Assembly: GCA_943789375.1 (NCBI GenBank)
Contig: CALSTX010000007.1
Coordinates: forward strand, 17,696-81,695
Reading direction: 5' to 3'
Source: an uncultured Opitutales bacterium
Lineage (GTDB): Bacteria; Verrucomicrobiota; Verrucomicrobiia; Opitutales; Seribacteraceae
DNA length: 64,000 nt
Below the pieces are notes generated by a model. The model had not been told where the DNA came from. It did not search any database and worked only from the letters and a program-made list of their open reading frames with translations. Below, in pieces: positions 20,419 through 34,042 of the stretch (positions are counted from its first letter, which is position 1; each line of letters begins with the position of its first letter). The translations under genes and the position numbers were made by a program.

Positions 20419-21005
20419 AAATTTCTATTCTTGGCTCTGGTAAAGGTTCAAACGCTAAATATTTGTTATCGGAATTTAAAAATGGCAAACTTAGCAATGT
20501 CCAAGATATTTCTCTTTTTAGTGATTCTGAAAATTCACAATTTTTAAAATTGGCTTCTGAATTTGGATGCTATGGAAAACATGTACCTACACCAACAAAA
20601 GGTTCAGTTATTAAGGGAACATATGAGACCGATTGGATCAATTCCTTATCTAAACTCCAACCCGACCTTATCATTCTAGCTGGATTCATGAGGATTGTTG
20701 GCATTAATTTCATTAACCATTTTGATGGTAATATAATTAATTTACATCCTAGTTTACTTCCTCACTTTAAAGGCTTAAACGCAATTGAGAATGCATTCAA
20801 AATGAATGTAGCAAGAACAGGTTGTACCGTCCATTGGGTTGATAACACTATAGATGGTGGCGATATTATAGCACAAGCTAGCATTCAGGTTTTTAAAAAC
20901 GAAAGTCTAGAAAGTCTTACTTCCCGGATTCACTCACAAGAACATTTTATATTATCACAAGTTGTCTGTGCTCTTGCTGATACTCATGTGTTAAAGAAAA
21001 CATGA
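20415..21005 (+). CDS. purN: Phosphoribosylglycinamide formyltransferase
   Basis: GSGKGSN, LAGFMRI, INLHPSLLP, GCTVHWV...DGGDII; TTG start. Confidence 0.93.
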   Translation: MKISILGSGKGSNAKYLLSEFKNGKLSNVQDISLFSDSENSQFLKLASEFGCYGKHVPTPTKGSVIKGTYETDWINSLSKLQPDLIILAGFMRIVGINFINHFDGNIINLHPSLLPHFKGLNAIENAFKMNVARTGCTVHWVDNTIDGGDIIAQASIQVFKNESLESLTSRIHSQEHFILSQVVCALADTHVLKKT

Positions 21006-21898
21006 TCAAGGCAAGTATTCCGATACATGCTGATATTGTTGATCAGATAGAAAACAATTTGCATGAAATTGCTCCATCTAAATGGATTATTTCACAAAGC
21101 CAAATAACCTTAAAAGCAAGACTTGAAGGGTACTTTGAAAACAACACAACTATCGATGAAATTAATGCTGAGATTAATTCATTTTTTTCAGACGAACTGT
21201 GTGAAAACAACAAACTAGAAGTCCTACAAATTAAGGATACAGATTGGACTGAATCCTATAAAATCCACTTTAAGCCCTGGAATCATAAAGGGTTTCATTG
21301 GATTCCAATATGGCTAGTTAATGAGTATTTAGTTCCCCAGGGAGATAAATATCTTCTTTTAGATCCAGGCATGGCTTTTGGTACAGGCAATCATGAAACT
21401 ACTAAACTTTGCTTAGAAGAAATAGTTGAGATGAATATAGTTCACTCTTCCAAACAAAAGGTACTAGACATAGGTTGCGGTTCTGGAATCTTAGCGATTA
21501 CTGCCGCTAAATTAGGATACCTTAACATTCTCGGCATTGATAATGATGAAGATGCTGTGAGAATATCAGAAGAAAATGCAATTCTTAACCAAGTGGAACA
21601 ACATATCCGTTTTATGAATCAAGGAATTGAATTGATTGAAGCAGACTCCAACTATGATCTAGTTGTAGCTAATATACAGTCAGATATTCTGATAGAAAAC
21701 AAAAATTCGATAATTGATACGACAAAAGCAGTATCAACACTGTTGCTATCAGGTGTCCTAGCAGTGGAAGCCAAAAATGTTGAAATGGTGTACTCTGAAG
21801 AATTTAACAGAAGAAAATACAACTATAAATCAGTGATAAAGACAGACGGAGAATGGAGTTTAATTCGATTCTCAATTTTGGAACCAAGAGAACTTTAG
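21002..21898 (+). CDS. prmA: Ribosomal protein L11 methyltransferase
   Basis: DWTESYK, LDPGMAFGTGNHETT, LDIGCGSGILAI, VVANI, LSGVL. Confidence 0.95.
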   Translation: MIKASIPIHADIVDQIENNLHEIAPSKWIISQSQITLKARLEGYFENNTTIDEINAEINSFFSDELCENNKLEVLQIKDTDWTESYKIHFKPWNHKGFHWIPIWLVNEYLVPQGDKYLLLDPGMAFGTGNHETTKLCLEEIVEMNIVHSSKQKVLDIGCGSGILAITAAKLGYLNILGIDNDEDAVRISEENAILNQVEQHIRFMNQGIELIEADSNYDLVVANIQSDILIENKNSIIDTTKAVSTLLLSGVLAVEAKNVEMVYSEEFNRRKYNYKSVIKTDGEWSLIRFSILEPREL

Positions 21899-23019
21899 CC
21901 CCCTAGATAAGTAAGAGCTTTGGGAATAGGTAATGTGTAAAAAGCAAATTGTGCAATTCCAAGGGAAGATATTTTTTTTGATACAGTATCTCTTAATGAC
22001 TCAACACTATCTGGTCCGACTGAAGTATAGACTAGAGCCCATTCTTCATTTTGTTGCTGCTCAGTATCAGCGGACTCAGCATCTATCATAACACCAAAGT
22101 TTGTACTCACACCCGGTGCACCCGTTTCTAAAATAGAATCATAAACTTCATCATAATGGTCGCGGGGTACTATACAATAGAGTCCTACTAAATCATTCAA
22201 AAAAGTGGATTTAAGAGATTTAGATTTAGATAAATCAGGCATTGCTCGCCAATCTTTACCTCCTTTTAAATCGTCTAAAGCGGAAATGACTTGTTCCATG
22301 TTAGCACCATGTGTTGAAGATGAAACCGTACTTGAAACATTGATAAGACCGGAGTGAACTGGAATTGAATACATAAAGCCACGACCCGGTTCCGTGATTC
22401 TTCCTGCCCGTGCCATATTACTGAAAACATCATCTGCTTCAGATTTATCTACCACACACCAAACAAATTCTTTTTCAGGCCCTTTAGTTATACGAAGCAT
22501 TGGGATTTTATCTCGTACGCCACCACCTTCTCCAAAAGTAACAGTTGGACCAGGAGCACCACTTTGAAGCGCTGCCTTTGCAATGTCATCAGCAATACCT
22601 TTTTCGCAAATGCAACATATTGCCTCTAAACTGGCTGCACTTTGGTTGTCTTCACTATTATTAGCATCGGATGAAATATTAGTTGGGAAGGATTTTGATA
22701 CCTGAGCATCATTACAACTCATACTAAAAACAGCCCCAGAACCGACTTTATCTAAATTTCCTGATTTAATAGCAGCTTCAGTAACTTGATTGATAATGTC
22801 GTCTGGAACAAGTGCCTGTAAAAGTAATTGCTCAGGAGCGGGTGGCGGAAACATTCTTTGAAGAAACCCACCTTCATTAAGTACAGAACCACGGGCGGAT
22901 ATTTGAAAAACCCCTTTCGCACCAGCTTTAGACACTGCATTAGAAACGCGTACAACTGATTCTTTCGGAAGAATTAAGTTTAGAAGGGAAACTCCTGATG
23001 ATTTTACTAAGTCGGTCAT
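21895..23019 (-). CDS. PII-like protein with three tandem PII-like domains
   Basis: Three approximately 95-aa units, each with a GA-x-G strand turn (AGAKGV, SGAPGP, TGAPGV); B-loop-like GSGAVF and GRGFMY in units 1 and 2; immediately downstream of the DUF1538 gene. Confidence 0.75.
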   Translation of the reverse strand: MTDLVKSSGVSLLNLILPKESVVRVSNAVSKAGAKGVFQISARGSVLNEGGFLQRMFPPPAPEQLLLQALVPDDIINQVTEAAIKSGNLDKVGSGAVFSMSCNDAQVSKSFPTNISSDANNSEDNQSAASLEAICCICEKGIADDIAKAALQSGAPGPTVTFGEGGGVRDKIPMLRITKGPEKEFVWCVVDKSEADDVFSNMARAGRITEPGRGFMYSIPVHSGLINVSSTVSSSTHGANMEQVISALDDLKGGKDWRAMPDLSKSKSLKSTFLNDLVGLYCIVPRDHYDEVYDSILETGAPGVSTNFGVMIDAESADTEQQQNEEWALVYTSVGPDSVESLRDTVSKKISSLGIAQFAFYTLPIPKALTYLGG

Positions 23020-23021
23020 GA

Positions 23022-25190
23022 TTATGCTTTCTCCATTTCTAATTCTGTTGCGTCATCCACTTTCGGTTTTTTTCGGACAAGTAGACCAACTGTGAGGACT
23101 GTAATGATAGGTCCAACTGAAGCCAGTGAAAGAACACCAAAACCATCAATAGCTCCAGTCTTGGCTCCAATACCTAGGCCCATAGCAAGCACAAGAGGCA
23201 CCGTAATTGGTCCTGTTGTAACACCCGCACTGTCCCATCCAAAGTTTACAAAATCTTCACTTGAAAAGAAGGTTAAAACCAAAAGAAAAGCATAGGGTGG
23301 TATCAACAAGTACCAAAGTTCTAAATTAAAAGCTATTTTGGCCACTCCAGTTGCAATTCCGCAAGCAACCCCTGTGGCAACAGCTTGCATCAATAAATTT
23401 TTCTTAAAAGCACCGACGGTTATTTTTTCTACAGTTGAACCAAGTGCATTTAATGCTGGTTCCGCCAAGGTTGCTCCATAGCCTAGAATGAAGCCAAAAA
23501 GAATCGCAAGACACTTCCCGGCAGTTGATGATTTGAAAAGAGGATCAACAAAACCTTCGCTTTGCCAAGGTTGAATCGATGTAAAACTAGAAACGACATT
23601 TCCGCCTAACTGTTCACCTAAGGGTGTTAAGCCTAAGGCTATTCCAAGATTAAAAAGACACATTCCAATGACGGCACAACCAATGCCTATAAATAATTCA
23701 TCTAAATATTTTGGTTTCTGCCTAAGTCCTCCCATCAACACAAGTAATAGTATTGAGCAAAGTGGCACAATGGCCCAAATCGCTCCCTCTAATGCTCCTC
23801 TATCTTGGTCAGGTCCATCAAGCTTACCATTTTTCTCATTATAATTGACGCTACCATCTTGATTGAACCCGTAAAAGTCTTCGCCAGGATCAAGGATTCC
23901 ATTACCGTTTTTATCTTCCTGTGGTTTGAAAGTGTTAGGGAAAAAATCGAAATTATTCGTAAAAGCGGTCGCAATATCCGAGCCTTCGTCCCAGACACCA
24001 TCGGGTGCTTTAAAACCCTCTCTAACGACATAAGCCTTTGCACCCTGCACCTCTACATTCTCACGTGAAACCTCATTGTCGCTTGACAGAAAACTTGGGA
24101 CAATTTTACCATCAGTTATTCTAGTTTTAATAGTGTAACCCTCAGGTAGCTTTTTATATTCCTGTAAGTATTTATCTACATTTTTTCTTTCATCTTGGGA
24201 TAAAGACCAAAATAAAGCATCTTCATCGACAGCTCCAGTAGCAGCCATTCTTTCAGCTGCTACAATGTCACCAAATTTCTGGTAGTCTTTGGGGTAATTT
24301 TTCCCGTAATCTCCAGCATTTAAATGCCATTCCGCCTTGGATAGCTTGGCCATGTAATAATTATCTCCATTAAATAAATAGAGGGCGTAACACATCACTG
24401 CTAGTATGGGAAATAAAGATGCTAAGGTAACAACACCAAAACCCGTGTTGCTGGAACCTCCCGTTGACACGATCCGACAAACTCCAATACCAAGCGCAAG
24501 AACTAAGGGTACTGTAACCGGGCCAGTCGTGACCGCACCGCAATCCCAAGCAAGGCCTAATACATGCCTAAGTCTATCGTCAGAAAACTGCATGTATAGG
24601 GTGATGCATGAAAGTACAATTACACCAACATATATAAATGGCTTCAGAGACCAACCTTTATAAAACCGTAAAACTCCAAGTAGAACAGCAATGCCAACAC
24701 CCACTCCAACACAATTGACAAGCATACCTGCTCCAGTGTTTAAAATAGTCCACAATAAAGGTGCAGCAGTTGGGTCCACACCGGAACCTGCAGCCCTAAG
24801 AACACCAATAGCTGGCTCTGCGAAAGTTGCAAAAGCTCCTAAAACGAAACCAAAAGCCAGACTTGCTGGTAAACAAGGAATTCCAAAAATCTTTTTTCTT
24901 GGTAGAGTAGATCCTAAAGTTTCCCCAAGAGGCATCAACCCAAGTCTGAGACCTTCCATGAAAAAAGCTAGTCCAACAATGACAATCATGATGCCTACTG
25001 CTATCATTAGAGAATAAACAATGGGTAATCCTAGGACCAGGACTTGGAAAACGATAAGGTATAGAATGATAAACCATACACATTGGATTTGTTCCACAAC
25101 CTTATCTTTCGAAAACGACAGCAAAATGCTAATCTTCTGTTTTAGAGTAAGTTGAAGTTTCTTTTGATCAGATGATTGTTGTGCCGTCAT
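23022..25190 (-). CDS. Fused tandem DUF1538 membrane protein (putative transporter)
   Basis: Duplicated motifs GLMPLGE/GLTPLGE, ATFAEPA/ATLAEPA, WDCGAVTTGPVTVP/WDSAGVTTGPITVP, GFGVVTLAS/GFGVLSLAS; about 190-aa soluble linker. Confidence 0.88.
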   Translation of the reverse strand: MTAQQSSDQKKLQLTLKQKISILLSFSKDKVVEQIQCVWFIILYLIVFQVLVLGLPIVYSLMIAVGIMIVIVGLAFFMEGLRLGLMPLGETLGSTLPRKKIFGIPCLPASLAFGFVLGAFATFAEPAIGVLRAAGSGVDPTAAPLLWTILNTGAGMLVNCVGVGVGIAVLLGVLRFYKGWSLKPFIYVGVIVLSCITLYMQFSDDRLRHVLGLAWDCGAVTTGPVTVPLVLALGIGVCRIVSTGGSSNTGFGVVTLASLFPILAVMCYALYLFNGDNYYMAKLSKAEWHLNAGDYGKNYPKDYQKFGDIVAAERMAATGAVDEDALFWSLSQDERKNVDKYLQEYKKLPEGYTIKTRITDGKIVPSFLSSDNEVSRENVEVQGAKAYVVREGFKAPDGVWDEGSDIATAFTNNFDFFPNTFKPQEDKNGNGILDPGEDFYGFNQDGSVNYNEKNGKLDGPDQDRGALEGAIWAIVPLCSILLLVLMGGLRQKPKYLDELFIGIGCAVIGMCLFNLGIALGLTPLGEQLGGNVVSSFTSIQPWQSEGFVDPLFKSSTAGKCLAILFGFILGYGATLAEPALNALGSTVEKITVGAFKKNLLMQAVATGVACGIATGVAKIAFNLELWYLLIPPYAFLLVLTFFSSEDFVNFGWDSAGVTTGPITVPLVLAMGLGIGAKTGAIDGFGVLSLASVGPIITVLTVGLLVRKKPKVDDATELEMEKA

Positions 25191-25275
25191 GATAATAAAT
25201 TTTATATGGAGTTAAGTTTATCTAATAGTCATTAAATGTATTTTAAACAAAAGGGAAAGCTTATTCATCAATAGA

Positions 25276-26478
25276 TCACATACTCCAAGATGCATTTGCG
25301 AGAGTCAAAGATACTTTGTTAACTCCTTGGTCTAAAACAATAGGAACATTCCATGTTACCCCAATTTTACCAAGAGCTGCAGTTCCTATTATAAAATAGT
25401 TACCCTTTTGGATCCCAGAAATAGACGCAGATCCGTTTATATCCGTTCTAACTCTTCTTCCATTTCCCTTCTCAACCTCGGAAAGTAATAATGTTCTAAT
25501 ATTCTTTTGGAGATTAGGATAGAGAAAAGAATTTTTTCTGGATTGAGCCCACAACTCTGAAAAGGATTCAAAAGATGAAAATTCAGACAGGTTGATATTA
25601 CCGGCTGAGAGAATCGCATTGAGGTTATTATTAATGACAAAAAACTCAGTGTAAAAAGCCTCTTTACTTTTTCCATTATAAGAGGTGACGACTGCATCAA
25701 AATTTAATGAACATGTACCTGTAAATAAACTCTTACTTGAGTTTTCATAATTCTGGGCAAACCGATTTTCCTCCAAATTAAGTTCCGGTTCTGCTAAAAA
25801 TATCTTTGTTTTAGGACTATTTTCAAGACTGGAAATTCGAGCTTCGAGGGAGTCATTTCGATACCTTAAATCTTTTATTTCATTCGATTTAAGAAATAGA
25901 CTATTTTTAAGGTTACTAATCTCTGAATGAAGTCCAGGAGCGACAACCTCTTCTGGAGAAATAAACTCGGAAGGAGAAGAGACAATTTTGGTTTCTCTTG
26001 CAGGTAATCCCTTCAATCGACGCACTTCAGCAAGCAGTTCGTCATTAATTGAAGAAAGTGATGCTATAGTTGTATCTTTGTTCGCATTAATTTTCCTCAA
26101 TTCCTCAATACTTCTTTGGTGTTCAATTGTTGATTCCTCTAGGTTTTGTAAGGCAACCTCGGCTTCAGTATTGGCAACTGTATCGAGGACTCTTCCGGCA
26201 TCAATGCCTGGGGAACTCACTGGAAGTGGAGTGGTAAAGCTAGGTTCAGCCCCTTCTACAACTAAAGATATAGACTTGTTGCTATCGTTTAAAAGATCCT
26301 CAAGATCGCTAACATTGTCAGGAGAAGACAGTAAAAGGTTTGTTACTTCACTATCGTTAGAACTTTCTTGTGTATTCTCCGTTTGAACTTGTTGCTCAGC
26401 AGTTCCGCAAGAGCAAATCGACATTACAAATACTAAAACAACGCAAGTAAACAAAGAATCTTTAAGCTTTTGGGACAT
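25276..26478 (-). CDS. Putative lipoprotein with central coiled coils, function unknown
   Basis: Basic-hydrophobic N-terminus ending in ICSC lipobox-like Cys; heptad-rich segments; beta-rich C-terminus (RTDINGSASISGIQKGNYFII). Confidence 0.65.
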   Translation of the reverse strand: MSQKLKDSLFTCVVLVFVMSICSCGTAEQQVQTENTQESSNDSEVTNLLLSSPDNVSDLEDLLNDSNKSISLVVEGAEPSFTTPLPVSSPGIDAGRVLDTVANTEAEVALQNLEESTIEHQRSIEELRKINANKDTTIASLSSINDELLAEVRRLKGLPARETKIVSSPSEFISPEEVVAPGLHSEISNLKNSLFLKSNEIKDLRYRNDSLEARISSLENSPKTKIFLAEPELNLEENRFAQNYENSSKSLFTGTCSLNFDAVVTSYNGKSKEAFYTEFFVINNNLNAILSAGNINLSEFSSFESFSELWAQSRKNSFLYPNLQKNIRTLLLSEVEKGNGRRVRTDINGSASISGIQKGNYFIIGTAALGKIGVTWNVPIVLDQGVNKVSLTLANASWSM

Positions 26479-26581
26479 AACAACTCATTACCAAAATATG
26501 TGTTCAATTCTTTGCAAGCACAATAATAGCGACGCTCAACTTGTTATTTACAAAATATTTATTTATGAAATATTGTTAGTA

Positions 26582-28948
26582 ATGCCTCAGCATACCCGAG
26601 AAGAGACTGATTTACTCAACCATGAGAATCGTTTTCTAAAGCAAACAATTCTATCTTTAAGAGATGAGCTGATTAAAAAAGAGATTGAATCCGAGGATTT
26701 GGTTCAAACTAAAGAAAATGAACTTCAATTGGAGATCAACTCCTTAAAGACTTCTATTGAACAGCAAAGGAGTGATTTAGACCAAAAAATTATAGCTCAT
26801 GACAATGAAAATCAAAATGTTCTTCAGAAATCCATAAATGAACAAAAGGAATTTAAAAAAATTATTCTAGATTTAAGGACTTCATTAGAAAAAAAATCTC
26901 TCGTCACAGATCAACAAAAACAGCAGTTAGCCTCCGTATTCAATCTAGAACTAAGCAGCTTGAAGAAACAGGTCGAGGTACTAAGGGAAGCGCTGGATAA
27001 AAGTCAGTTAGAAATTCAAGAGGTCGGACAACTTGCCACCAGGGGTGCTTCTAATGAAATCTCTGAACTCAAAAAATCTATACTCAATCTACGACAAAAA
27101 ATCGAAGGTTTGAATAATTTAAATGATCAAAAAATCCAAAAGATTAAAGCAGGTACAGAAATTGAGGCTAGAGGACTAAGAGCAACGATCACAAACCTTA
27201 GAAATCAATTAGAAAAACTCGAAAGCTCAAGGGATGATGCGGTTCAGAAGGCAATTTCAAGCAAATCGGCAGAGATATCTTCTCTTAAATTATCAATTTC
27301 TAATACTCGGGAAAAGCTAGCCAAGATAAAGGAAGAGGAGGAGGACAAAGCACAAACAAAATTTTCTACTTACAACCTAGAAATTAAAAACCTTAAGGAT
27401 ACTATCACAAGCATTCGCAATGAACTAGAAAACCAGAAAAATAAAGAAGCAGAAATTACTCAATCAGCGAAAAAAGAGGCATACGACGAAATTAAGCAAC
27501 TTAAGCAAACTCTCTCAAAGACTCGTGATAATCTCGAGCTTCAAAAGAATTTGGAAGATGATCGCATACAGAAAGTCAAAGCTAATGCTGAAATTGAAAT
27601 TACTGTATTAAAGAATTCAATCCAAGAACTCAGAGAAGAACTTGATAATTGCTCTTTTGATAAAAATACTGCGATTCAAAAGGTAGAAAATGGATACCGC
27701 TCTGAAATTTCGCTATTAAAACAATCTTTGTCAATAGCCCGTGATAATTTAGAAGACTTAAAAGCAAGAGAAGAAGATAAAATACAAAGAGCAATCTCGT
27801 CGATAAATAGCCAAAACAAAACATTTCAAAATACAATCATCGGATTAAGAGAAGAACTTGAAAAAGAATCATCTGATAAAGAGGACATGATTCAAAAGTA
27901 TCAATCTGCAACCAATCGGGAAATCCAGCAACTTAAATTTTCACTTGGAAAAACTCGTGAATCACTTGACCAGCAAAAAGCTAAGTACGAGGATAGAGTC
28001 CAAAAGGTCAAGGCTTCGAAAGAAAATGAAATTCATACCTTAAAAGGTTTAGCCCAAAGCTTACGAGATGAATTAGAACACTCTCAAGTTGTGACTGACG
28101 ATTTAGTTCAGAAGAGTAAAAGTGAATCTCAATCAGAAATAAATCAGCTGAAATCGTCTCTTCACAGAATGCGGGATCAGCTTCAAAAGGTTAAGGAATA
28201 CGAGGCGGAAAAACATCAAATGTCACAAGCCCAAAATGAAAGAGAAAATACGAGTCTTAAAAGCACTATTTCAACATTGAGAACAAAACTCGATGAAACC
28301 GAATTTAAATTTCAAGATTCAATACAAAAAGCAGAAGCCAGTTCAAATGCTCAACAAGTTGCACTCAAAAAAAGTCTGTTACAAACACGAGAAAAAATGG
28401 ACAGGCTTCAAAATGATAAAGAAGTAGAGGTGCAAAATGCGGTCTCTAAGCAAGAATCTACAATCCAACAATTGCAAAACAGTATATCTCAATTAAGAGA
28501 AGAAATAGAATTACAGAAAAGTCAGAATGAAGAAGCTACCCAAAAATCTATTTCGATTCATTTGACCGATAATTCACAATTGAAGAAATCAATCTTAGAT
28601 TTACGAAATAAACTTGAAAAAATTAAAATTTCGAAAGAAGAAGCGTTACAAAAATTGAGATTTGAAAGAGAAAATGAAATCAAAGCTTTGCAAGAAAATT
28701 TAACCCAACTTCGATTGGATTTGGAAGGTTCCGAAATCAATAAACAGGAAGCAGTACAAAATGTTGTGAGCTCAAATCAAAATGAAATTAACCACTTTCG
28801 TAGAATGGTATCCAATCTTCGCGATGAGCTTGAACAAAACAAAGCAAGATACGAACAAGCAAAGCAAGATGATCTGCAAAAAAAAGAATCGGAAATGTTG
28901 CAGTTACAGTCGACTATAATTGATTTACGAACTAAACTAGAAAATTAA
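26582..28948 (+). CDS. 788-aa helical protein built of exact 36-residue repeats
   Basis: Probable start ATG 26582 (MPQHTREE); 14-aa leader + 21 x 36 aa + 18-aa partial repeat; no TM segment or signal peptide. Confidence 0.9.
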   Translation: MPQHTREETDLLNHENRFLKQTILSLRDELIKKEIESEDLVQTKENELQLEINSLKTSIEQQRSDLDQKIIAHDNENQNVLQKSINEQKEFKKIILDLRTSLEKKSLVTDQQKQQLASVFNLELSSLKKQVEVLREALDKSQLEIQEVGQLATRGASNEISELKKSILNLRQKIEGLNNLNDQKIQKIKAGTEIEARGLRATITNLRNQLEKLESSRDDAVQKAISSKSAEISSLKLSISNTREKLAKIKEEEEDKAQTKFSTYNLEIKNLKDTITSIRNELENQKNKEAEITQSAKKEAYDEIKQLKQTLSKTRDNLELQKNLEDDRIQKVKANAEIEITVLKNSIQELREELDNCSFDKNTAIQKVENGYRSEISLLKQSLSIARDNLEDLKAREEDKIQRAISSINSQNKTFQNTIIGLREELEKESSDKEDMIQKYQSATNREIQQLKFSLGKTRESLDQQKAKYEDRVQKVKASKENEIHTLKGLAQSLRDELEHSQVVTDDLVQKSKSESQSEINQLKSSLHRMRDQLQKVKEYEAEKHQMSQAQNERENTSLKSTISTLRTKLDETEFKFQDSIQKAEASSNAQQVALKKSLLQTREKMDRLQNDKEVEVQNAVSKQESTIQQLQNSISQLREEIELQKSQNEEATQKSISIHLTDNSQLKKSILDLRNKLEKIKISKEEALQKLRFERENEIKALQENLTQLRLDLEGSEINKQEAVQNVVSSNQNEINHFRRMVSNLRDELEQNKARYEQAKQDDLQKKESEMLQLQSTIIDLRTKLEN
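26624..28945 (+). repeat. Degenerate 108-bp (36-codon) tandem repeat array, 21.5 units
   Basis: Consensus E-I-x-x-L-K-x-S/T-I/L-x-x-L/T-R-x-x-L-E...Q; the repeat is clear at protein level and divergent at DNA level. Confidence 0.9.
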
Positions 28949-28949
28949 C

Positions 28950-31214
28950 ATGGCAGATAAAAAAGATACCAAATCCAAAAGAACATCCAGGTTCGCTGAA
29001 ATGCTTTTGCAGGTTACTAATGATCTAGCAAAAACTAAATCCCTTGATGAAGCTCTTGAAGTGTTAGTTAAAATAACCACTTCAACCATCGGTGCAGAAA
29101 GAGGAACAATTTTTCTCAATGATGCCTCCACCGGTGAGCTATACTCTCGAATTGCCCAAGGAAATTTCAGGCGTGAAATAAGAATCCTAAACACAAAAGG
29201 CGTGGCAGGATGGGTCTTTACCCAAGATGAGGGTGTCATCATTCATGACGCCTACAAAGATGAAAGGTTTAATAAAGCTGTTGATGTGAGAACAGGGTTT
29301 CGAACCAAAAGCATCCTTTGTGCCCCCCTAAGAACGGTGTCGGGGGAAGAAATTGGCGTATCTCAGATACTAAACAAGATAGACGGTGAGTTTGAGCAAG
29401 AGGACCTCGACTTACTTGAGGCAATGACTGAACAAGCTGCTATTGCTATTCAGGGAAATATAATCGTTGAGCAAATTGAGGCAGCAAGAAAACAAGAGTT
29501 GGAATTCCTGGATGTCGTATCTCAAGTTTCGTCCGAGCTAGAACTTACTCCCCTCTTGCAGAAAATCATCACCACAATCTCTACAATGTTAGATTGTGAA
29601 AGAGCTACTCTTTTTATCAATGATGAAAAAACAAATGAATTATATACAGAAGTAGGCGAAGGACTTGATGAAAAATCTGTAATCAAATTCCCCAACCACC
29701 TTGGCATAGCAGGAACCGTTTTTACTTCTGGAAAACCCGTAAATATTCCTCATGCTTATGCGGATCTCAGGTTCAATCCTAGTTTTGATAAACAAACTGG
29801 GTTTTTCACCAGATCAATTTTGTGCATGCCGGTATTTAATAAGGAAGGCAAAACCATTGGAGTTAGCCAAGTTCTTAATAAAAGAGGTGGTTCCTTTAAC
29901 GCAGAAGATGAAAAAAGGTTAGCAGCTTTTACATCTCAAATTTCAATGGGTATCGAGAATGCAAAATTATTCGACGATGTTCAAAACCAAAAAAATTATT
30001 CTGAGAGTATTTTATCTAGTATGCATGATGCTGTTCTCACTCTAGATGAAACCGGAATTATCAGAACCTGTAATACGGCTGGTCTTCGTATTCTAAAATC
30101 TCCCATATTGAGCGATATTTTGGGAAAAAAAGCTTCGGATGTGTTAACTGAATCAAATTCATGGTTACTTCAAAAACTGGATTCTATGGAGGAACAGGAA
30201 GACTTTTTAGATGCTGAAATTAAAATTGAAGATGAAACACTTTCGGTGAATGTGTCAGTGATGCCACTCGTAGGTCAAAAGAAAGAAAGCCTCGGTGTGA
30301 TGCTTATGATTGAAGATATTAGTTCGGAAAAAAGAATGAAATCTACGATGTCTAGATATATGGACCCAGAATTGGCGGATCAGCTAATGATGGGTGGAGA
30401 TGGGAATGACATCATGGGGGGCAAGCAAAGTGTAGGAACCGTCCTATTTTCCGATGTTAGAAGTTTCACCACCATTACAGAAGAACTTGGTGCTCAAGGA
30501 ACAGTCAAGCTATTGAACGAATACTTTACAATTATGGTGGATTGTATAACGGATGAAGGGGGCATGCTTGATAAATTTATTGGCGATGCGATGATGTGTA
30601 TTTTTGGAACACCCGTTCCTCATGATGACGATCCTGACCGTGCTGTAAGAGCTGCTATCAGAATGATGACAGACTTAATTGTTTTTAATGACAAACGAGC
30701 AACCGAAGGAAAAATGCCCATTGATCACGGTATGGGTATAAACACCGACTCTATCGTTTCTGGAAATATCGGTTCGCCAAAAAGAATGGACTACACTGTC
30801 ATTGGAGATGGGGTTAACTTAGCAGCTCGTATTGAAAGTGCATGTAAACAATACGGAGCTCATATCCTGATAAGTGAGTTTACGCAAAAAGCTGTAAAAG
30901 CCACCTACAGAACCCGCCAAGTCGATTATATGATCGTGAAGGGAAAAACTGTTCCCGTTGGTGTCTACGAGGTCTTGGACTTTCATGACGATAAATCTTA
31001 CCCTAACCTAGCGGACGCCCTTGGGGTATTCAACGAAGGCTACAGATCCTGGACAGATGGCAAATGGGATCAAGCCATAAAATTATTCAAAAATGTTCAG
31101 AAAATAAACCCTGCGGATAAAGCCGCTCAACTTTATTTGGATCGTTGTGCTCACATGAAGAAGAATCCACCAAAAGGCGATTGGTCTGGTGTTTGGGTGA
31201 TGACAACTAAGTAA
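28950..31214 (+). CDS. GAF-GAF-PAS-class III adenylate cyclase-TPR protein (CyaB-like architecture)
   Basis: Two GAF domains with NK...F...D(E) motifs (LNKIDGEFEQED, LNKRGGSFNAEDE); PAS; catalytic FSDVRSFT, DKFIGDA, MDYTVIGDGVNLAARIES; C-terminal TPR-like helices. Confidence 0.92.
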   Translation: MADKKDTKSKRTSRFAEMLLQVTNDLAKTKSLDEALEVLVKITTSTIGAERGTIFLNDASTGELYSRIAQGNFRREIRILNTKGVAGWVFTQDEGVIIHDAYKDERFNKAVDVRTGFRTKSILCAPLRTVSGEEIGVSQILNKIDGEFEQEDLDLLEAMTEQAAIAIQGNIIVEQIEAARKQELEFLDVVSQVSSELELTPLLQKIITTISTMLDCERATLFINDEKTNELYTEVGEGLDEKSVIKFPNHLGIAGTVFTSGKPVNIPHAYADLRFNPSFDKQTGFFTRSILCMPVFNKEGKTIGVSQVLNKRGGSFNAEDEKRLAAFTSQISMGIENAKLFDDVQNQKNYSESILSSMHDAVLTLDETGIIRTCNTAGLRILKSPILSDILGKKASDVLTESNSWLLQKLDSMEEQEDFLDAEIKIEDETLSVNVSVMPLVGQKKESLGVMLMIEDISSEKRMKSTMSRYMDPELADQLMMGGDGNDIMGGKQSVGTVLFSDVRSFTTITEELGAQGTVKLLNEYFTIMVDCITDEGGMLDKFIGDAMMCIFGTPVPHDDDPDRAVRAAIRMMTDLIVFNDKRATEGKMPIDHGMGINTDSIVSGNIGSPKRMDYTVIGDGVNLAARIESACKQYGAHILISEFTQKAVKATYRTRQVDYMIVKGKTVPVGVYEVLDFHDDKSYPNLADALGVFNEGYRSWTDGKWDQAIKLFKNVQKINPADKAAQLYLDRCAHMKKNPPKGDWSGVWVMTTK

Positions 31215-31225
31215 AACTAGCTGAA

Positions 31226-32743
31226 ATGAACCCAAGAACACATTTGGAGAGAGCGATTGATTTAGATCCCGATTATTCGGAAGCATACTTTGAACTTGGA
31301 CTTTTAAATAAACATGAAGGTAATGAACATGATGCACTCTCCTTATTTCAAAAGGCTGTTTCGCTGAATAAAAATTTTGCCGAGGCAGAATGTGAATTAG
31401 CCATTTCATTAATGAACTCAAATGATTTAGAAGAATCAAGAAATCATTTCCTCAATTCATTAGAGATAAACCCAAATTACGCGGATGCTTACTTTCATTA
31501 CGGGCAATTATTGACAAAGCTTAAAGATATAGAAGAAGCAAAAAATAACTTTGATAAAGTAACCGAAATTAATCAAAACTATGCTAAAGCATACTTTCAT
31601 AAAGCTAGATTACTTACTCATGCAGATGATTTTGAGTCTGCTAGGAAGAATTATGAAACGGCAATCGACATAGACGAAGAATTCACAGATGCTCATTATT
31701 ACATGGCAAAACTTCTGACTGGAGGAATCGCCACAGACAAAGAAGGTTCGATTATTGACCGAACAAATATACCGGCCGCTAAACATCACTTAAAGAAAGT
31801 CTTAAAATATAAGCCTGACAACTTTAAGGCCCTATACAACATTGCTAAAATTGATTACAAACAAGGAGAATTAAACTTAGCAAAAAAAAATCTTAATAAA
31901 GCAATAAAACTGAGTCCACAATATTGGAAAGCACAGTATTTGCTGGGAATGATTTATCTAAAAATTGGAGATATTAAAAACGCTGAAAAATACTTTCAGG
32001 CATCCATTATTAACAACGAAATTAACCCAAAATCCTACTTCCAAATTGGGAAAATATATTACTATCAGAATTCTTACAAAACTGCTGAAGGAAATCTTGC
32101 GAAATCAGTTGCCCATAAGGATGAAAATGCTGAAGCACACTATTATCTTGCTAAGATAAACAGCGAAAATGGTGATTCTACTTTGGCTAAGAAACATTTT
32201 TACAAGTCTCTTGAAATTGATCCTGAGTATGCAAATGCATACTATGAATTAGCACACCATTGTCTAAAAGTTAACGAAATTAATGAAGCAAAAATTCATT
32301 TTCAAAAAACGACCGATATTGATCAAAACTTTTCGAAAGCATATTATCATTTAGCAAAATCACTAAGAAACCCTTCAGAATTTGATCAAGCATTTCGCAA
32401 CTATGAAACTGCACTTGAAATTGATCCTGGCATGGAAGAATGTCACTACAATTTTGCTTGTTTATTAATTGAAGGTGAAAAATTAAAAAATGATGGAACT
32501 CTGGTTAAAGAACCAAATTTAACTCTAGCGGAAAAACATTTGAAGTTAGCCATCGAAGTAAACCCGAAATTTTTTAAAGCTTACTATAAAATTGGCAAAA
32601 TACAGAATACCCAAAAGAAATATTCTCAGGCACTAGAGCACTTTCAGAAAAGCATCCAGATTGAAAATGAGTTTGCAAAAGCTCATTACGAAATCGCACT
32701 ACTGCTTATCAAAAAAAAAGGTCAACTACTCACACAAAAATAA
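31226..32743 (+). CDS. Tetratricopeptide-repeat protein
   Basis: 13 complete TPR units in 34-aa register (two extended to 46 aa) plus partial units at both ends. Confidence 0.92.
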   Translation: MNPRTHLERAIDLDPDYSEAYFELGLLNKHEGNEHDALSLFQKAVSLNKNFAEAECELAISLMNSNDLEESRNHFLNSLEINPNYADAYFHYGQLLTKLKDIEEAKNNFDKVTEINQNYAKAYFHKARLLTHADDFESARKNYETAIDIDEEFTDAHYYMAKLLTGGIATDKEGSIIDRTNIPAAKHHLKKVLKYKPDNFKALYNIAKIDYKQGELNLAKKNLNKAIKLSPQYWKAQYLLGMIYLKIGDIKNAEKYFQASIINNEINPKSYFQIGKIYYYQNSYKTAEGNLAKSVAHKDENAEAHYYLAKINSENGDSTLAKKHFYKSLEIDPEYANAYYELAHHCLKVNEINEAKIHFQKTTDIDQNFSKAYYHLAKSLRNPSEFDQAFRNYETALEIDPGMEECHYNFACLLIEGEKLKNDGTLVKEPNLTLAEKHLKLAIEVNPKFFKAYYKIGKIQNTQKKYSQALEHFQKSIQIENEFAKAHYEIALLLIKKKGQLLTQK

Positions 32744-32767
32744 AATCCTATAAATGCTCAGGCAAAA

Positions 32768-34042
32768 GTGTGTGATCAAGAAATTACTTATCATTTAGAA
32801 AGTGCGTTATCTTACGATCCACATAACCAAGAGATATTAAAACTATCATGCTTGTTCTATTTAGATAACGAAGATTTCAAAAAAGTAAGAAGTATTCTCC
32901 AGTGCTTTGAATCAGAAAGTGAAAGTGAATATGTTCTCTTTATAAAATCACTTCTTGCATTTAAGAAGAAAGAATACCAGGAAGCATCTCAGTGCATAGC
33001 GAAATGCATAAGGTTAAATCCATCCATAGAATACCTAACTAAAGGACAAGAAATTGAAAGCTATAATGGAGATACAGAAAATCTATCAACCTACCTCAAC
33101 CTGCTCGTAGAAAAGGACTCACAAAATGGTTGGCATTACTATGCACTCGCAAAGTTTCTCGATATAGAGTCAGAGTTCCAACGAATATTTTACTTAATTG
33201 AAACTAGTATTTCTCTCCTACACAAAGAGGAAAAGCCTCTCATCCTTAAGTACAATATCTTAATTGATTATAGTGATTTACTGAAGGAGACACCCTACTA
33301 TAAAACTGACATCCAAATATTTGATGATTTTGGCAAGTTGCTCGAAAAATATCCTCTTAATAACGATTTAAGTTTTTTCATTGCTAAAATTAACTATCAA
33401 AAGAAGAGATATGATGAAGCGATCGACATCCTAGAAAACAATGTTGAACCGATTAAGTCATTCAACTTACTCGGAGATTGTTATTTCAAAAAAAAGAATT
33501 TCAAAAAAGCATTAGAATATTTTAGTAAAACTAATCCTTCAGGAAATAATGCTTTTTTTCTGAGTAAAAAGAAAGGAATGTGTTCATTAAAACTTAATAA
33601 ACACTCTCATGCAAAAAAACACTTCCTAGAATGCTATGAACTATTTTATGATCTGCAAAGGAAGTATGATAATGATTATAAACGTTGTGTTTCAAAGAAT
33701 CAATTTGGCGAAGCAAAGAAATTTATTATTAAAAAAAATAAGGCAAAGTTATATATGTCGAATATATGCTTGGCTCTTCACAAATTCAAAACCTTACCAA
33801 TTCAAAAAGACTTTCTTCAACTGGCTTTAAATATAAATAATCAAAACAGCCACGCCCTTCTTGAAATGGGTTTGTTACACAAAGAGAATTGCACACAAGA
33901 GGCACTGGTTTATTTCCTAAAATCCGCACAATACGATTGGGATAATATGGAAGCACATAAACAACTCTCAGTTGCGTATAAAGAACTCGGCCAACTTCAA
34001 AACCATTTACTTCATAAAAAAATAATAGAGCAAGACAGTTGA
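32768..34042 (+). CDS. TPR-like helical repeat protein; in frame with the upstream TPR gene
   Basis: Degenerate TPR units (AKINYQKKRYDEAIDILE, LLGDCYFKKKNFKKALEYFSK, ALLEMGLL...ALVYFLKS); GTG start; separated from the previous ORF by a single TAA in the same frame. Confidence 0.75.
   Translation: MCDQEITYHLESALSYDPHNQEILKLSCLFYLDNEDFKKVRSILQCFESESESEYVLFIKSLLAFKKKEYQEASQCIAKCIRLNPSIEYLTKGQEIESYNGDTENLSTYLNLLVEKDSQNGWHYYALAKFLDIESEFQRIFYLIETSISLLHKEEKPLILKYNILIDYSDLLKETPYYKTDIQIFDDFGKLLEKYPLNNDLSFFIAKINYQKKRYDEAIDILENNVEPIKSFNLLGDCYFKKKNFKKALEYFSKTNPSGNNAFFLSKKKGMCSLKLNKHSHAKKHFLECYELFYDLQRKYDNDYKRCVSKNQFGEAKKFIIKKNKAKLYMSNICLALHKFKTLPIQKDFLQLALNINNQNSHALLEMGLLHKENCTQEALVYFLKSAQYDWDNMEAHKQLSVAYKELGQLQNHLLHKKIIEQDS

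What the first reader, a model, noticed from the sequence alone, without database searches (positions are those of the whole stretch)
21895..34042. Candidate undescribed system: cAMP cyclase + repeat rod + TPR scaffolds divergently paired with a PII-gated DUF1538 transporter
Seen: a 12-kb block of non-housekeeping genes between prmA and pssA, arranged as two divergent units: (PII x3 <- DUF1538 x2 <- lipoprotein) and (36-mer rod -> cyclase -> TPR -> TPR). Established: the PII-like SbtB binds cAMP/AMP and controls its transporter SbtA, and PstA/DarA binds c-di-AMP. Inference: the cyclase product may be read by the triple PII-like protein to gate the transporter, giving a local second-messenger circuit (possibly inorganic carbon, ion or Ca2+ homeostasis). 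Adjacency in one genome is the only direct support.
Basis: inference. Interest (0 to 1): 0.7.

Follow-up and report, generated by a model that had tools for sequence, protein, structure and literature searches.

The report
PII-guarded DUF1538 transporter beside cAMP cyclase
A marine Opitutales bacterium carries a two-gene cassette found in many phyla (a fused DUF1538 ion transporter plus a three-domain PII-like sensor) placed back-to-back with a self-activating cAMP cyclase operon; the sensor-transporter pairing holds across phyla, while the cAMP link recurs in another phylum but is unproven.

Summary
The block consists of two separately conserved modules.

**Module A** is lipoprotein, then fused DUF1538x2, then a single-chain triple PII-like protein. 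Its core pair, DUF1538x2 plus PIIx3, is an autonomous cassette. It is adjacent in 54-57 of 58 loci from Gammaproteobacteria, Bacteroidota, Planctomycetota, Chlorobiota and other Verrucomicrobiota, with no third conserved neighbour. Unfused DUF1538 pairs carry one- or two-domain PII genes.

**Module B** is a 36-residue-repeat rod, then a GAF-GAF-PAS class III adenylate cyclase with the same domain order as Anabaena CyaB1 (from memory), then TPR proteins. It is conserved across three Opitutales families.

- **Adjacency:** the two modules are adjacent only in one family (three genera). In a second family both persist but are unlinked.
- **Co-occurrence:** in a 121-genome order sample, 11 of 12 genomes with the cyclase ortholog also carry DUF1538. 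The twelfth has a contig break.
- **Independent recurrence:** a Bacteroidota order places a different adenylate cyclase (fused to an HD domain), together with a Na+/H+ exchanger carrying a cyclic-nucleotide-binding domain, divergently next to the same cassette in 6 of 6 loci.

My reading is a PII-like-regulated cation/proton transporter of the UmpAB kind, recurrently coupled to cAMP signalling. Direct cAMP sensing by the PII-like protein remains untested (about 0.2).

The parts
21895..23019 (-). PIIx3: a single-chain protein of three PII-like domains (about 10-108, 131-233, 274-372) with a conserved helix (241-251) between domains 2 and 3. It is the presumed cytoplasmic regulator of the transporter.
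   Evidence: Pfam P-II 36 bits. The profile hits solved PII/GlnK chains in all three domain positions. AF2 gives pLDDT 83.5 and pTM 0.81 with three beta-alpha-beta-beta-alpha-beta units. Foldseek matches GlnK/GlnB per domain at TM 0.6-0.73. Domain 2 and its T-loop (G165, G167, R169, D170, L175-R176-I177) are the most conserved part. It lies directly downstream of DUF1538x2 in 54-57 of 58 distant loci.
23022..25190 (-). DUF1538x2: a membrane transporter made of two fused DUF1538 halves (about 34-270 and 471-703) joined by a roughly 190-residue soluble linker. The linker carries family-specific DxNxNGxxDxxE loops (DNA 23877-23915). It is a relative of UmpA/UmpB.
   Evidence: PF07556 358.8 bits with two stretches. 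NCBIfam UmpA 191.9 bits and UmpB 156.4 bits, both far below the equivalog cut-offs of 490 and 500. Invariant AEP Glu and WD(S/C)xxVTTGP Asp occur in each half, at helix breaks in the AF2 model. No structural neighbour in the PDB. The linker loops are conserved only within the family.
25276..26478 (-). Lipoprotein with a coiled-coil middle and a conserved C-terminal domain (about 230-398). It is the first gene of the transporter operon in Opitutales only.
   Evidence: Signal peptide plus lipobox. It lies upstream of DUF1538x2 in family f1 and, unlinked from the cyclase, in family f83. It is absent from cassettes outside Opitutales.
26479..26581 (.). Divergent intergenic region with two blocks conserved across the genus: 26511-24 (TTTGCAAGCACAAT) and 26538-61 (CAACTTGTTATTTACAAAATATTT). 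They read as back-to-back promoter-like elements.
   Evidence: Alignment of the region from 13 family members. Promoter-like hit TTTACA-16-AATATT at 26547-26574 (not above shuffle expectation). Sequence.
26582..28948 (+). Rod: 21 in-register 36-residue repeats with a 72-residue super-period, Glu/Lys/Gln/Leu-rich, with no signal peptide. It is the first gene of the cyclase operon.
   Evidence: Autocorrelation peaks at 72, 108 and 36 residues and the register print. It lies directly upstream of the cyclase ortholog in families f1, f83 and f75. It evolves fast (31-53% identity) next to a cyclase at 84-92%.
28950..31214 (+). GAF-GAF-PAS class III adenylate cyclase with a C-terminal TPR, the domain order I recall for Anabaena CyaB1. 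It is predicted to make cAMP.
   Evidence: Pfam domains. The GAF tandem matches PDE5/PDE2 and an 'adenylate cyclase' entry, 1YKD, which I recall as the Anabaena CyaB2 GAF tandem. The catalytic domain aligns to chain 3R5G, named 'CyaB' (recalled as the Pseudomonas aeruginosa enzyme), with Lys (DKFIGD) and Thr (YTVIGD) at the substrate positions, plus FSD/IGD metal Asp and VNLAAR Asn/Arg; chain 2W01, deposited as 'adenylate cyclase' (I recall it as the Synechocystis guanylate cyclase Cya2), has Glu and Gly there. Identity is 84-92% across a family in which PrmA is 37-47%.
31226..32743 (+). TPR1: a 505-aa cytoplasmic all-TPR protein and a conserved third gene of the cyclase operon.
   Evidence: Multiple TPR families at E about 1e-50. 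No signal peptide. It follows the cyclase in f1 and f83 at 36-58% identity.
32768..34042 (+). TPR2: a 424-aa TPR protein that is poorly conserved; its membership of the module is uncertain.
   Evidence: TPR_2/TPR_19 hits. Identity is only 23-29% where detectable in relatives.

Best explanation
The block is two autonomous operons transcribed from a shared divergent promoter region of about 100 bp.

**Operon A (lipoprotein, DUF1538x2, PIIx3).** It encodes an ion-coupled transporter of the DUF1538 family. The family's only characterised member, UmpAB, is a two-subunit Na+(Li+,K+)/H+ antiporter. Here the two subunits are fused. The transporter has a dedicated cytoplasmic regulator, a single polypeptide holding three PII-like domains.

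By analogy with GlnK-AmtB and SbtB-SbtA (inference), PIIx3 binds adenine nucleotides in its conserved inter-domain clefts and uses the near-invariant T-loop of domain 2 to dock on, and throttle, the transporter. Asymmetric conservation of the three domains (domain 2 > 1 > 3) would suit a non-trimeric, pseudo-dimeric target.

**Operon B (rod, cyclase, TPR).** It encodes an adenylate cyclase with the Anabaena CyaB1 domain order, presumably cAMP-autoactivated, held on a repeat-rod/TPR scaffold.

**Link between them.** The operons are not obligate partners. They are repeatedly brought together with cAMP signalling, so they most likely serve one task: cAMP-modulated monovalent-cation/proton (salt and pH) homeostasis, with co-regulated expression. 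Whether PIIx3 itself reads cAMP is open.

**Shown here:** gene content, the cassette's conservation, the three PII folds, intact cyclase catalytic residues, and the distribution of adjacency.

**Inferred:** transport substrate, PIIx3-transporter contact, ligand identity, and any cAMP coupling.
For: **Cassette.**
- DUF1538x2 is directly followed by a full-length PIIx3 in 54-57 of 58 loci from at least five phyla or classes. No third conserved neighbour exists, and upstream genes are heterogeneous.
- In a Verrucomicrobiota sample, 14 of 16 loci show the pairing by tblastn and one more by Pfam.
- An unfused DUF1538 pair is followed by a one-domain P-II gene, and a short fused form by a 214-aa P-II protein.
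- The PIIx3 family holds 267 clusters at 50% identity at E<=1e-30.

**PII nature.**. Domain 2 and its T-loop are the most conserved region.

**Transport.** UmpA/UmpB-like matches. UmpAB antiport activity is reported in PMC5484666. Invariant Glu and Asp sit at predicted helix breaks.

**Module B.** Rod-cyclase-TPR1 is conserved in f1 and f83, and rod-cyclase in f75. Catalytic residues are intact with Lys/Thr at the substrate positions.

**Coupling.**
- Adjacency in three genera, with conserved intergenic motifs.
- In the order sample, 11 of 12 genomes with the cyclase ortholog have DUF1538, and the twelfth contig ends inside the lipoprotein gene. Six genomes have DUF1538 without that ortholog, and 103 have neither.
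- In a Bacteroidota order, 6 of 6 loci with upstream DNA show (NHE-cNMP-binding <- Lys/Asp cyclase-HD) divergent to (DUF1538x2 -> PIIx3).
- All three cyclase-domain hits in the 58 flanks lie at the immediately adjacent divergent position.
- The cyclase-linked cassettes fall in three separate clades of the transporter tree.
- The window's genome has a homolog of that NHE-cNMP exchanger at 47-51% identity.
Against: - About 55 of 58 cassettes outside the family have no cyclase within 8 kb.
- In family f83 both modules persist unlinked. In G402, 9-12 kb beyond each module holds none of the other's genes.
- The co-occurrence rests on related families, so it may reflect one to three events rather than independent ones.
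- Whole-block synteny in f1 includes the housekeeping flanks, so adjacency there could be inherited without selection.
- Matches to UmpA and UmpB are far below the equivalog cut-offs, so the substrate is uncertain.
- The AF2 transporter model is only moderate (pLDDT 72) and has no solved analogue.
- The pseudo-trimeric packing of PIIx3 could not be inspected because no coordinates were available.
- The promoter-like hits do not exceed shuffle expectation.
Confidence: 0.55

Rival explanations
1. One reading: cAMP made by the adjacent cyclase is bound directly by PIIx3, which then opens or closes the DUF1538 transporter. This would be a local second-messenger loop like cAMP-SbtB-SbtA.
For: PII-like SbtB binds cAMP and controls SbtA (papers listed). 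Three independent clades place a class III cyclase divergently next to the cassette. All 10 tested carriers from other phyla encode at least one class III cyclase. Every order-sample genome with the cyclase ortholog also has the cassette.
Against: Most cassettes have no nearby cyclase. No SbtB chain is among the matches to solved structures at E<=1, whereas canonical PII chains are. The protein ends in ALTYLGG, without the Cys-containing C-terminal R-loop I recall for SbtB. In the Bacteroidota operon the obvious cAMP reader is the cNMP-binding domain fused to the Na+/H+ exchanger, and the window's genome has that exchanger plus two other cNMP-binding proteins. The cyclase-linked PIIx3 lineages share no obvious derived change in the loops. 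Class III cyclases are common anyway, present in 81 of 121 order genomes.
Confidence: 0.2
2. No functional link: two unrelated modules became neighbours once in an Opitutales ancestor and stayed together through general synteny. The Bacteroidota and gammaproteobacterial cases are coincidences.
For: The whole region, including dnaJ-like, prmA and pssA, is syntenic in f1. The modules are unlinked in f83. The cassette is autonomous in about 55 of 58 distant loci. The gammaproteobacterial case is a weak domain hit (E 7.7e-5) with only one other ortholog, of unknown context.
Against: Cyclase genes are about 0.1% of genes, yet they occupy the adjacent divergent slot in two to three independent clades, and all three flank hits are in that slot. 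The Bacteroidota arrangement is kept in 6 of 6 loci down to 57-63% PIIx3 identity, and its operon also holds a cNMP-gated Na+/H+ exchanger, matching the transporter family's known activity. Module B was not found without module A in the order sample. The intergenic motifs are conserved.
Confidence: 0.3
3. An inorganic-carbon system: DUF1538x2 takes up bicarbonate, as SbtA does, and the cyclase senses bicarbonate. Cyclases with Thr at the second substrate position (class IIIb) are often bicarbonate-responsive.
For: The cyclase has the Lys/Thr pair, as in the 'CyaB' chain 3R5G. Bicarbonate activation of CyaB1 and of Pseudomonas aeruginosa CyaB is from my own knowledge. The SbtA/SbtB precedent applies.
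Against: The only characterised DUF1538 proteins are a Na+(Li+,K+)/H+ antiporter. The Bacteroidota cyclase next to the cassette is the Lys/Asp type and is paired with a Na+/H+ exchanger. The carriers are mostly heterotroph lineages (my reading of the taxon names), and no carboxysome or RuBisCO genes appear among the recurring neighbours.
Confidence: 0.07

Closest known systems
GlnK-AmtB and SbtB-SbtA (PII-family proteins encoded next to, and plugging, a transporter)
   Same: A PII-fold protein is encoded immediately next to a membrane transporter and is conserved with it across phyla. It has a conserved T-loop carrying Arg residues, which could insert into the transporter.
   Different: The regulator is one chain with three non-equivalent PII domains instead of a homotrimer. 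The partner is a fused pseudo-dimeric DUF1538 protein, not a trimeric Amt or SbtA. No SbtB chain is among the matches to solved structures at E<=1. Ligand and contact are untested.
UmpAB, the two-component Na+(Li+,K+)/H+ antiporter of Halomonas zhaodongensis (PMC5484666)
   Same: It belongs to the same Pfam family (DUF1538), has two homologous halves that are needed together, and the N-half resembles UmpA while the C-half resembles UmpB.
   Different: Here the halves are fused through a roughly 190-residue soluble linker with Ca2+-loop-like motifs. Scores are far below the UmpA and UmpB equivalog cut-offs (191.9 against 490; 156.4 against 500). A PII-like partner is not mentioned in the paper's text.
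Anabaena CyaB1/CyaB2, cAMP-autoactivated GAF-GAF-PAS adenylate cyclases (own knowledge: Kanacher et al. 2002), and the 'CyaB' chain 3R5G (recalled as Pseudomonas aeruginosa)
   Same: The same domain order as CyaB1 including a terminal TPR (domains; the comparison is from memory). The GAF tandem matches the 'adenylate cyclase' chain 1YKD and cNMP-binding PDE GAFs. It has a Lys/Thr substrate pair and complete catalytic residues.
   Different: It is found in Verrucomicrobiota and lies in a conserved operon with a 36-residue-repeat rod and a TPR protein. Autoactivation and any bicarbonate response are untested.
Sperm SLC9C1 (a Na+/H+ exchanger with a cyclic-nucleotide-binding domain) working with soluble adenylyl cyclase (PMC6052114)
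   Same: The Bacteroidota operon next to the cassette pairs an adenylate cyclase with a Na+/H+ exchanger fused to a cNMP-binding domain. The window's genome has a homolog of that exchanger. This is the same logic of cAMP acting on Na+/H+ exchange.
   Different: The bacterial proteins gave no Pfam match to a voltage-sensor domain. The resemblance is one of logic, not shown homology of the whole system.

Membership tests
PII superfamily (PF00543) | Ferredoxin-like beta-alpha-beta-beta-alpha-beta fold with T-loop and B-loop | tested here: met
   Pfam 36 bits against a cut-off of 25. The profile matches solved PII chains in three positions. The AF2 secondary structure shows three such units. Foldseek to GlnK/GlnB gives probability 1.0 and TM 0.6-0.73 per domain. 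GxGxxF/Y B-loop-like motifs occur in domains 1 and 2.
PII superfamily (PF00543) | Homotrimer with three equivalent inter-subunit nucleotide sites | tested here: not met
   It is one chain of three diverged domains, with mean column conservation 0.50, 0.61 and 0.41. A pseudo-trimer is plausible (pTM 0.81), but the packing could not be inspected because no coordinates were available.
PII superfamily (canonical GlnB/GlnK) | T-loop Tyr51 uridylylation site and 2-oxoglutarate/ATP sensing | not testable with these tools
   The T-loops are short and unlike GlnB. Ligand binding needs biochemistry. The genome has two canonical PII genes elsewhere.
SbtB (cAMP-binding PII-like protein of SbtA) | Encoded with SbtA; SbtB-type sequence with a C-terminal redox R-loop; binds cAMP | tested here: not met
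   The partner is DUF1538, not SbtA. No SbtB chain is among the matches to solved structures at E<=1. The C-terminus is ALTYLGG, without a Cys pair. cAMP binding was not testable.
DUF1538 (PF07556) | Match to the family model over its full length | tested here: met
   358.8 bits with two full-length stretches. The conserved AEP and WDxxxVTTGPxTVP motifs occur in both halves.
UmpA/UmpB Na,Li,K/H+ antiporter (NCBIfam NF041627/NF041628 equivalogs) | Score above the equivalog cut-off; two separate subunits; measured antiport | tested here: not met
   191.9 bits against 490 and 156.4 bits against 500. The subunits are fused. Activity was not testable. This lowers the claim 'is UmpAB', not the claim 'works like a cation/H+ exchanger'.
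Class III nucleotide cyclase, adenylate-specific | Two metal Asp, substrate Lys plus Asp/Thr, transition-state Asn and Arg | tested here: met
   PF00211 79.5 bits. Alignment to 3R5G, 2W01 and 6FHT shows FSD, DKFIGD, YTVIGD and VNLAAR in register.
CyaB1/CyaB2-type self-activating cyclase | GAF-GAF-PAS-cyclase order with cNMP-binding (NKFDE-type) GAFs; cAMP activates via GAF-B | tested here: inconclusive
   The domain order is met. The GAFs match the 'adenylate cyclase' GAF tandem 1YKD and PDE5/PDE2 at E about 1e-34 to 1e-37, and carry NK…F…DE (GAF-B) and NK…F…ED (GAF-A). Autoactivation needs an enzyme assay.

The most novel reading that the evidence does not exclude
PIIx3 is a new class of single-chain, asymmetric PII receptor. 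Its non-equivalent clefts would read two different adenine nucleotides (energy charge and cAMP), and its domain-2 T-loop would plug a structurally unprecedented DUF1538 cation/proton transporter. Dedicated cyclases would have been recruited next to it at least twice. That would make cAMP a direct gate of Na+/H+ homeostasis in marine heterotrophs.
Probability: 0.17. Interest if true: 0.8.

Novelty: new variant of a known kind. Interest (0 to 1): 0.6.

Why it matters
PII proteins that plug transporters (GlnK-AmtB, SbtB-SbtA) are a textbook regulatory motif, and both are symmetric trimer-on-trimer pairs. This locus adds a third transporter family under PII-type control, and the geometry differs: a single-chain three-domain PII paired with a fused two-half transporter.

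The family comprises about 270 clusters at 50% identity across several phyla, and I found no paper linking DUF1538 to PII. The transporter fold has no solved relative.

Different adenylate cyclases appear next to the cassette more than once, in one case together with a cNMP-gated Na+/H+ exchanger. This gives a concrete and cheap hypothesis about what cAMP does in abundant marine heterotrophs. It can be tested with nucleotide binding, KNabc complementation and vesicle assays.

Tried and rejected
- **Pattern scan with a broad alignment.** A 13-sequence DUF1538 alignment had no stretch conserved enough for a pattern scan. A 6-sequence one worked.
- **tblastn with the window's cyclase.** It missed the Bacteroidota and gammaproteobacterial cyclases. 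They appeared only through a Pfam genome search and my own cyclase HMM over six-frame translations. Negative tblastn results for divergent domains should therefore not be trusted.
- **Whole-chain Foldseek of PIIx3.** The top hits (aspartate kinase, cytokinin oxidase, cage proteins) have TM about 0.2 and I discarded them. Only the per-domain PII hits are meaningful.
- **Foldseek of DUF1538x2.** Nothing at E<0.06.
- **Gammaproteobacterial FHA-cyclase neighbour.** Only one other ortholog turned up in 81 order genomes, at a contig start, so conservation is unknown. I count it as weak.
- **Third conserved partner.** None found by all-against-all ORF clustering or by a Pfam census of upstream genes.
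- **Neighbourhood of the genome's own NHE-cNMP exchanger.** It lies next to the nuo operon, with no cyclase nearby.
- **Literature.** No paper in the library links DUF1538 or UmpAB to PII, and none describes a tandem or single-chain PII.
- **Transporter topology.** The side of the membrane on which the linker lies could not be settled without model coordinates.

Full report
**What is there.** The window comes from a marine Opitutales (Verrucomicrobiota) metagenome-assembled genome, judging by names attached to near-identical proteins and loci.

- Minus strand: a lipoprotein (25276-26478), a 722-aa protein with two DUF1538 domains (23022-25190), and a 374-aa protein with P-II similarity (21895-23019).
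- Plus strand: an 816/788-aa repeat protein (26498 or 26582 to 28948), a GAF-GAF-PAS class III cyclase with a terminal TPR (28950-31214), and two TPR proteins (31226-32743, 32768-34042).

The repeat protein has exact 36-residue periodicity with a 72-residue super-period. BLOSUM autocorrelation peaks at 72, 108 and 36 residues, and 21 repeats stay in register.

**The PII-like protein.** A profile built from 56 homologs matches solved PII/GlnK proteins at three separate positions: 12-106, 136-225 and 291-383.
- AlphaFold2 on that alignment gives pLDDT 83.5 and pTM 0.81, with three beta-alpha-beta-beta-alpha-beta units and a conserved helix (241-251) between units 2 and 3.
- Foldseek matches each unit to GlnK/GlnB at TM 0.6-0.73. 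Whole-chain hits are spurious.
- Conservation is asymmetric. Domain 2 scores 0.61, domain 1 scores 0.50 and domain 3 scores 0.41. The domain-2 T-loop (G165, G167, R169, D170, L175-R176-I177) is the most conserved stretch at 0.78.
- I could not inspect domain packing, so 'pseudo-trimer' remains an inference from the high pTM.
- No SbtB chain is among the PDB matches at E<=1.
- The genome has two canonical PII genes elsewhere.

**The transporter.** Both halves match DUF1538 over the full model. The N-half resembles UmpA and the C-half resembles UmpB, but far below the equivalog cut-offs.
- UmpAB of Halomonas zhaodongensis is the only characterised member. It is a hetero-dimeric Na+(Li+,K+)/H+ antiporter (PMC5484666).
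- Each half keeps an invariant Glu (AEP) and Asp (WDxxxVTTGP). In the AF2 model (pLDDT 72) these lie at helix breaks, as cation sites often do.
- The model has no structural neighbour in the PDB.
- The roughly 190-residue linker with DxNxNGxxDxxE loops is an insertion specific to this Opitutales family.

**The cassette is autonomous and widespread.**
- A pattern scan of one genome per GTDB species returned 80 loci.
- Fifty-eight of them lie outside the window's family. They come from Gammaproteobacteria, Bacteroidota, Chlorobiota, Planctomycetota and other Verrucomicrobiota.
- In 54-57 of those 58, the fused DUF1538x2 is followed directly by a full-length PIIx3 (28-41% identity). The exceptions are cut by contig ends.
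- Clustering all flank ORFs found no third conserved neighbour, and the upstream genes are heterogeneous.
- An even sample of the phylum gave the same pairing in 15 of 16 loci.
- An unfused DUF1538 pair is followed by a one-domain P-II gene, and a short fused form by a 214-aa P-II protein. The DUF1538-PII link therefore holds across the family, with one, two or three PII domains.
- A profile search of 1.84 billion representatives finds 267 clusters at E<=1e-30, mostly 365-410 aa.
- I found no paper connecting DUF1538 or UmpAB with PII.

**The cyclase module.**
- The GAF tandem matches PDE5/PDE2 GAFs and the 'adenylate cyclase' chain 1YKD, which I recall as the Anabaena CyaB2 GAF tandem.
- The catalytic domain aligns with the 'CyaB' chain 3R5G. 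Lys (DKFIGD) and Thr (YTVIGD) occupy the substrate positions, and all metal and transition-state residues are present. Chain 2W01, deposited as 'adenylate cyclase' (I recall it as the Synechocystis guanylate cyclase Cya2), has Glu and Gly there. The protein is therefore predicted to make cAMP.
- The domain order equals that of Anabaena CyaB1, a cAMP-autoactivated enzyme (own knowledge).
- The protein is 84-92% identical across a family in which PrmA is only 37-47% and a DnaJ-like protein 68-75% identical. It is thus under unusually strong constraint, while the rod next to it drifts (31-53%).
- Rod-cyclase-TPR1 is a conserved unit in families f1 and f83, and rod-cyclase in f75.

**Are the two units linked?** Evidence against an obligate link:
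- About 55 of 58 distant cassettes have no cyclase domain within 8 kb (own HMM over six frames).
- In family f83, lipoprotein-DUF1538x2-PIIx3 and rod-cyclase-TPR1 both persist on different contigs. In G402, 9-12 kb beyond each unit holds none of the other's genes. In G347 and G369, the 1.6-2.2 kb upstream of the rod holds no match to the lipoprotein's conserved C-terminal domain, which in family f1 lies within that distance.
- The f1 synteny also includes the housekeeping flanks.

Evidence for a link:
- Adjacency holds in three genera, with conserved motifs in the 103-bp divergent intergenic region.
- In a 121-genome sample of the order, 12 genomes have the cyclase ortholog (>=66% identity). 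Eleven of them have DUF1538, and the twelfth (G343) has a contig ending inside the lipoprotein gene. Six genomes have DUF1538 without that ortholog, and 103 have neither. These genomes are related, so this may represent few events.
- A small Bacteroidota order (MAGs deposited as 'Flavobacteriales bacterium') shows, in 6 of 6 loci with upstream DNA, a divergent operon next to DUF1538x2-PIIx3. That operon encodes a Lys/Asp-type class III adenylate cyclase fused to an HD domain, followed by a Na+/H+ exchanger (PF00999) fused to a cyclic-nucleotide-binding domain. It is conserved down to 57-63% PIIx3 identity.
- One gammaproteobacterial MAG has an FHA-FHA protein with a weak cyclase domain in the same slot. 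Its conservation is unknown.
- All three cyclase hits in the 58 flanks occupy the immediately adjacent divergent position.
- In a maximum-likelihood tree of the transporter, the cyclase-linked cassettes fall in three separate, well-supported clades. The cyclases have three different architectures, so the adjacencies arose independently.
- The window's own genome encodes a homolog of the Bacteroidota NHE-cNMP exchanger (47-51% identity, contig C4) and four class III cyclases.

**Reading.** The best-supported model has three parts.
- (i) The cassette is a PII-like-regulated DUF1538 transporter. It most likely exchanges monovalent cations for protons, by family membership and by the company it keeps in Bacteroidota.
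- (ii) The rod-cyclase-TPR unit is a scaffolded cAMP switch.
- (iii) The two share a physiological task, cAMP-modulated salt and pH homeostasis, and are probably co-regulated where adjacent.

That PIIx3 itself reads cAMP is possible, and SbtB provides a precedent. It is not needed to explain the data, because cNMP-binding receptors, including one fused to a Na+/H+ exchanger, are present. I give the composite model 0.55, direct cAMP sensing by PIIx3 0.2, pure coincidence 0.3 and an inorganic-carbon role 0.07.

**Limits.**
- No ligand, transport or interaction data exist.
- The transporter model is of moderate confidence.
- The domain packing of PIIx3 and the membrane side of the linker are unverified.
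- The co-occurrence statistics are not phylogenetically corrected.
They agree with what I found but are not independent evidence.

Noticed in passing
L150:1-4471 (-) and L156:1830-6751 (-); also L213, L214, L216, L217: A Bacteroidota operon encodes a class III adenylate cyclase (Lys/Asp type) fused to an HD domain, followed by a roughly 1000-aa Na+/H+ exchanger (PF00999) with a C-terminal cyclic-nucleotide-binding domain. It is a bacterial counterpart of the sperm SLC9C1/soluble-cyclase logic.
   Followed up: partly
own genome G000, contig C4:274709-277915 (outside the window): A 1068-aa homolog (47-51% identity) of that cNMP-binding Na+/H+ exchanger lies just upstream of the nuo operon. It is a conventional cAMP receptor acting on Na+/H+ exchange in this organism.
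   Followed up: partly
window 26479-26581: The genus shares conserved blocks at 26511-26524 and 26538-26561. The promoter-like hexamers lie only about 7 nt from each start codon (26478 on the minus strand, 26582 on the plus strand). Both operons may therefore be near-leaderless, and the rod ORF's upstream ATG (26498) is probably not used. In sister genera the first block is replaced by the palindrome TTGCCTAGGCAA.
   Followed up: partly
window 23022-25190 (-): The AlphaFold2 model of DUF1538x2 (pLDDT 72) has no structural neighbour among 350,542 PDB chains (best E 0.065, TM 0.13). DUF1538 may be a transporter fold with no solved representative.
   Followed up: no
window 23877-23915 (-) and the following loop: The EF-hand-like DKNGNGILDPGED loop, and a second loop NQDGSVNYNEKNGKLDG, sit in a linker insertion found only in this Opitutales family. 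Cassettes elsewhere have a shorter linker without them.
   Followed up: partly
window 28950-31214 (+) versus 21002-21898 (+): The cyclase is 84-92% identical across genomes whose PrmA is 37-47% and DnaJ-like protein 68-75% identical. It is one of the most constrained proteins in the region.
   Followed up: no
L123:8739-10914 (-) (G368:C3): An unfused DUF1538 pair (two 259-aa ORFs) is followed by a 130-aa one-domain P-II gene and an ORF with a TrkA_C-like domain. This looks like a simpler version of the cassette.
   Followed up: partly
L191:4844-6361 (-): A gammaproteobacterial MAG has an FHA-FHA protein with a weak class III cyclase domain, divergently placed 491 bp upstream of its DUF1538x2-PIIx3 cassette.
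   Followed up: partly
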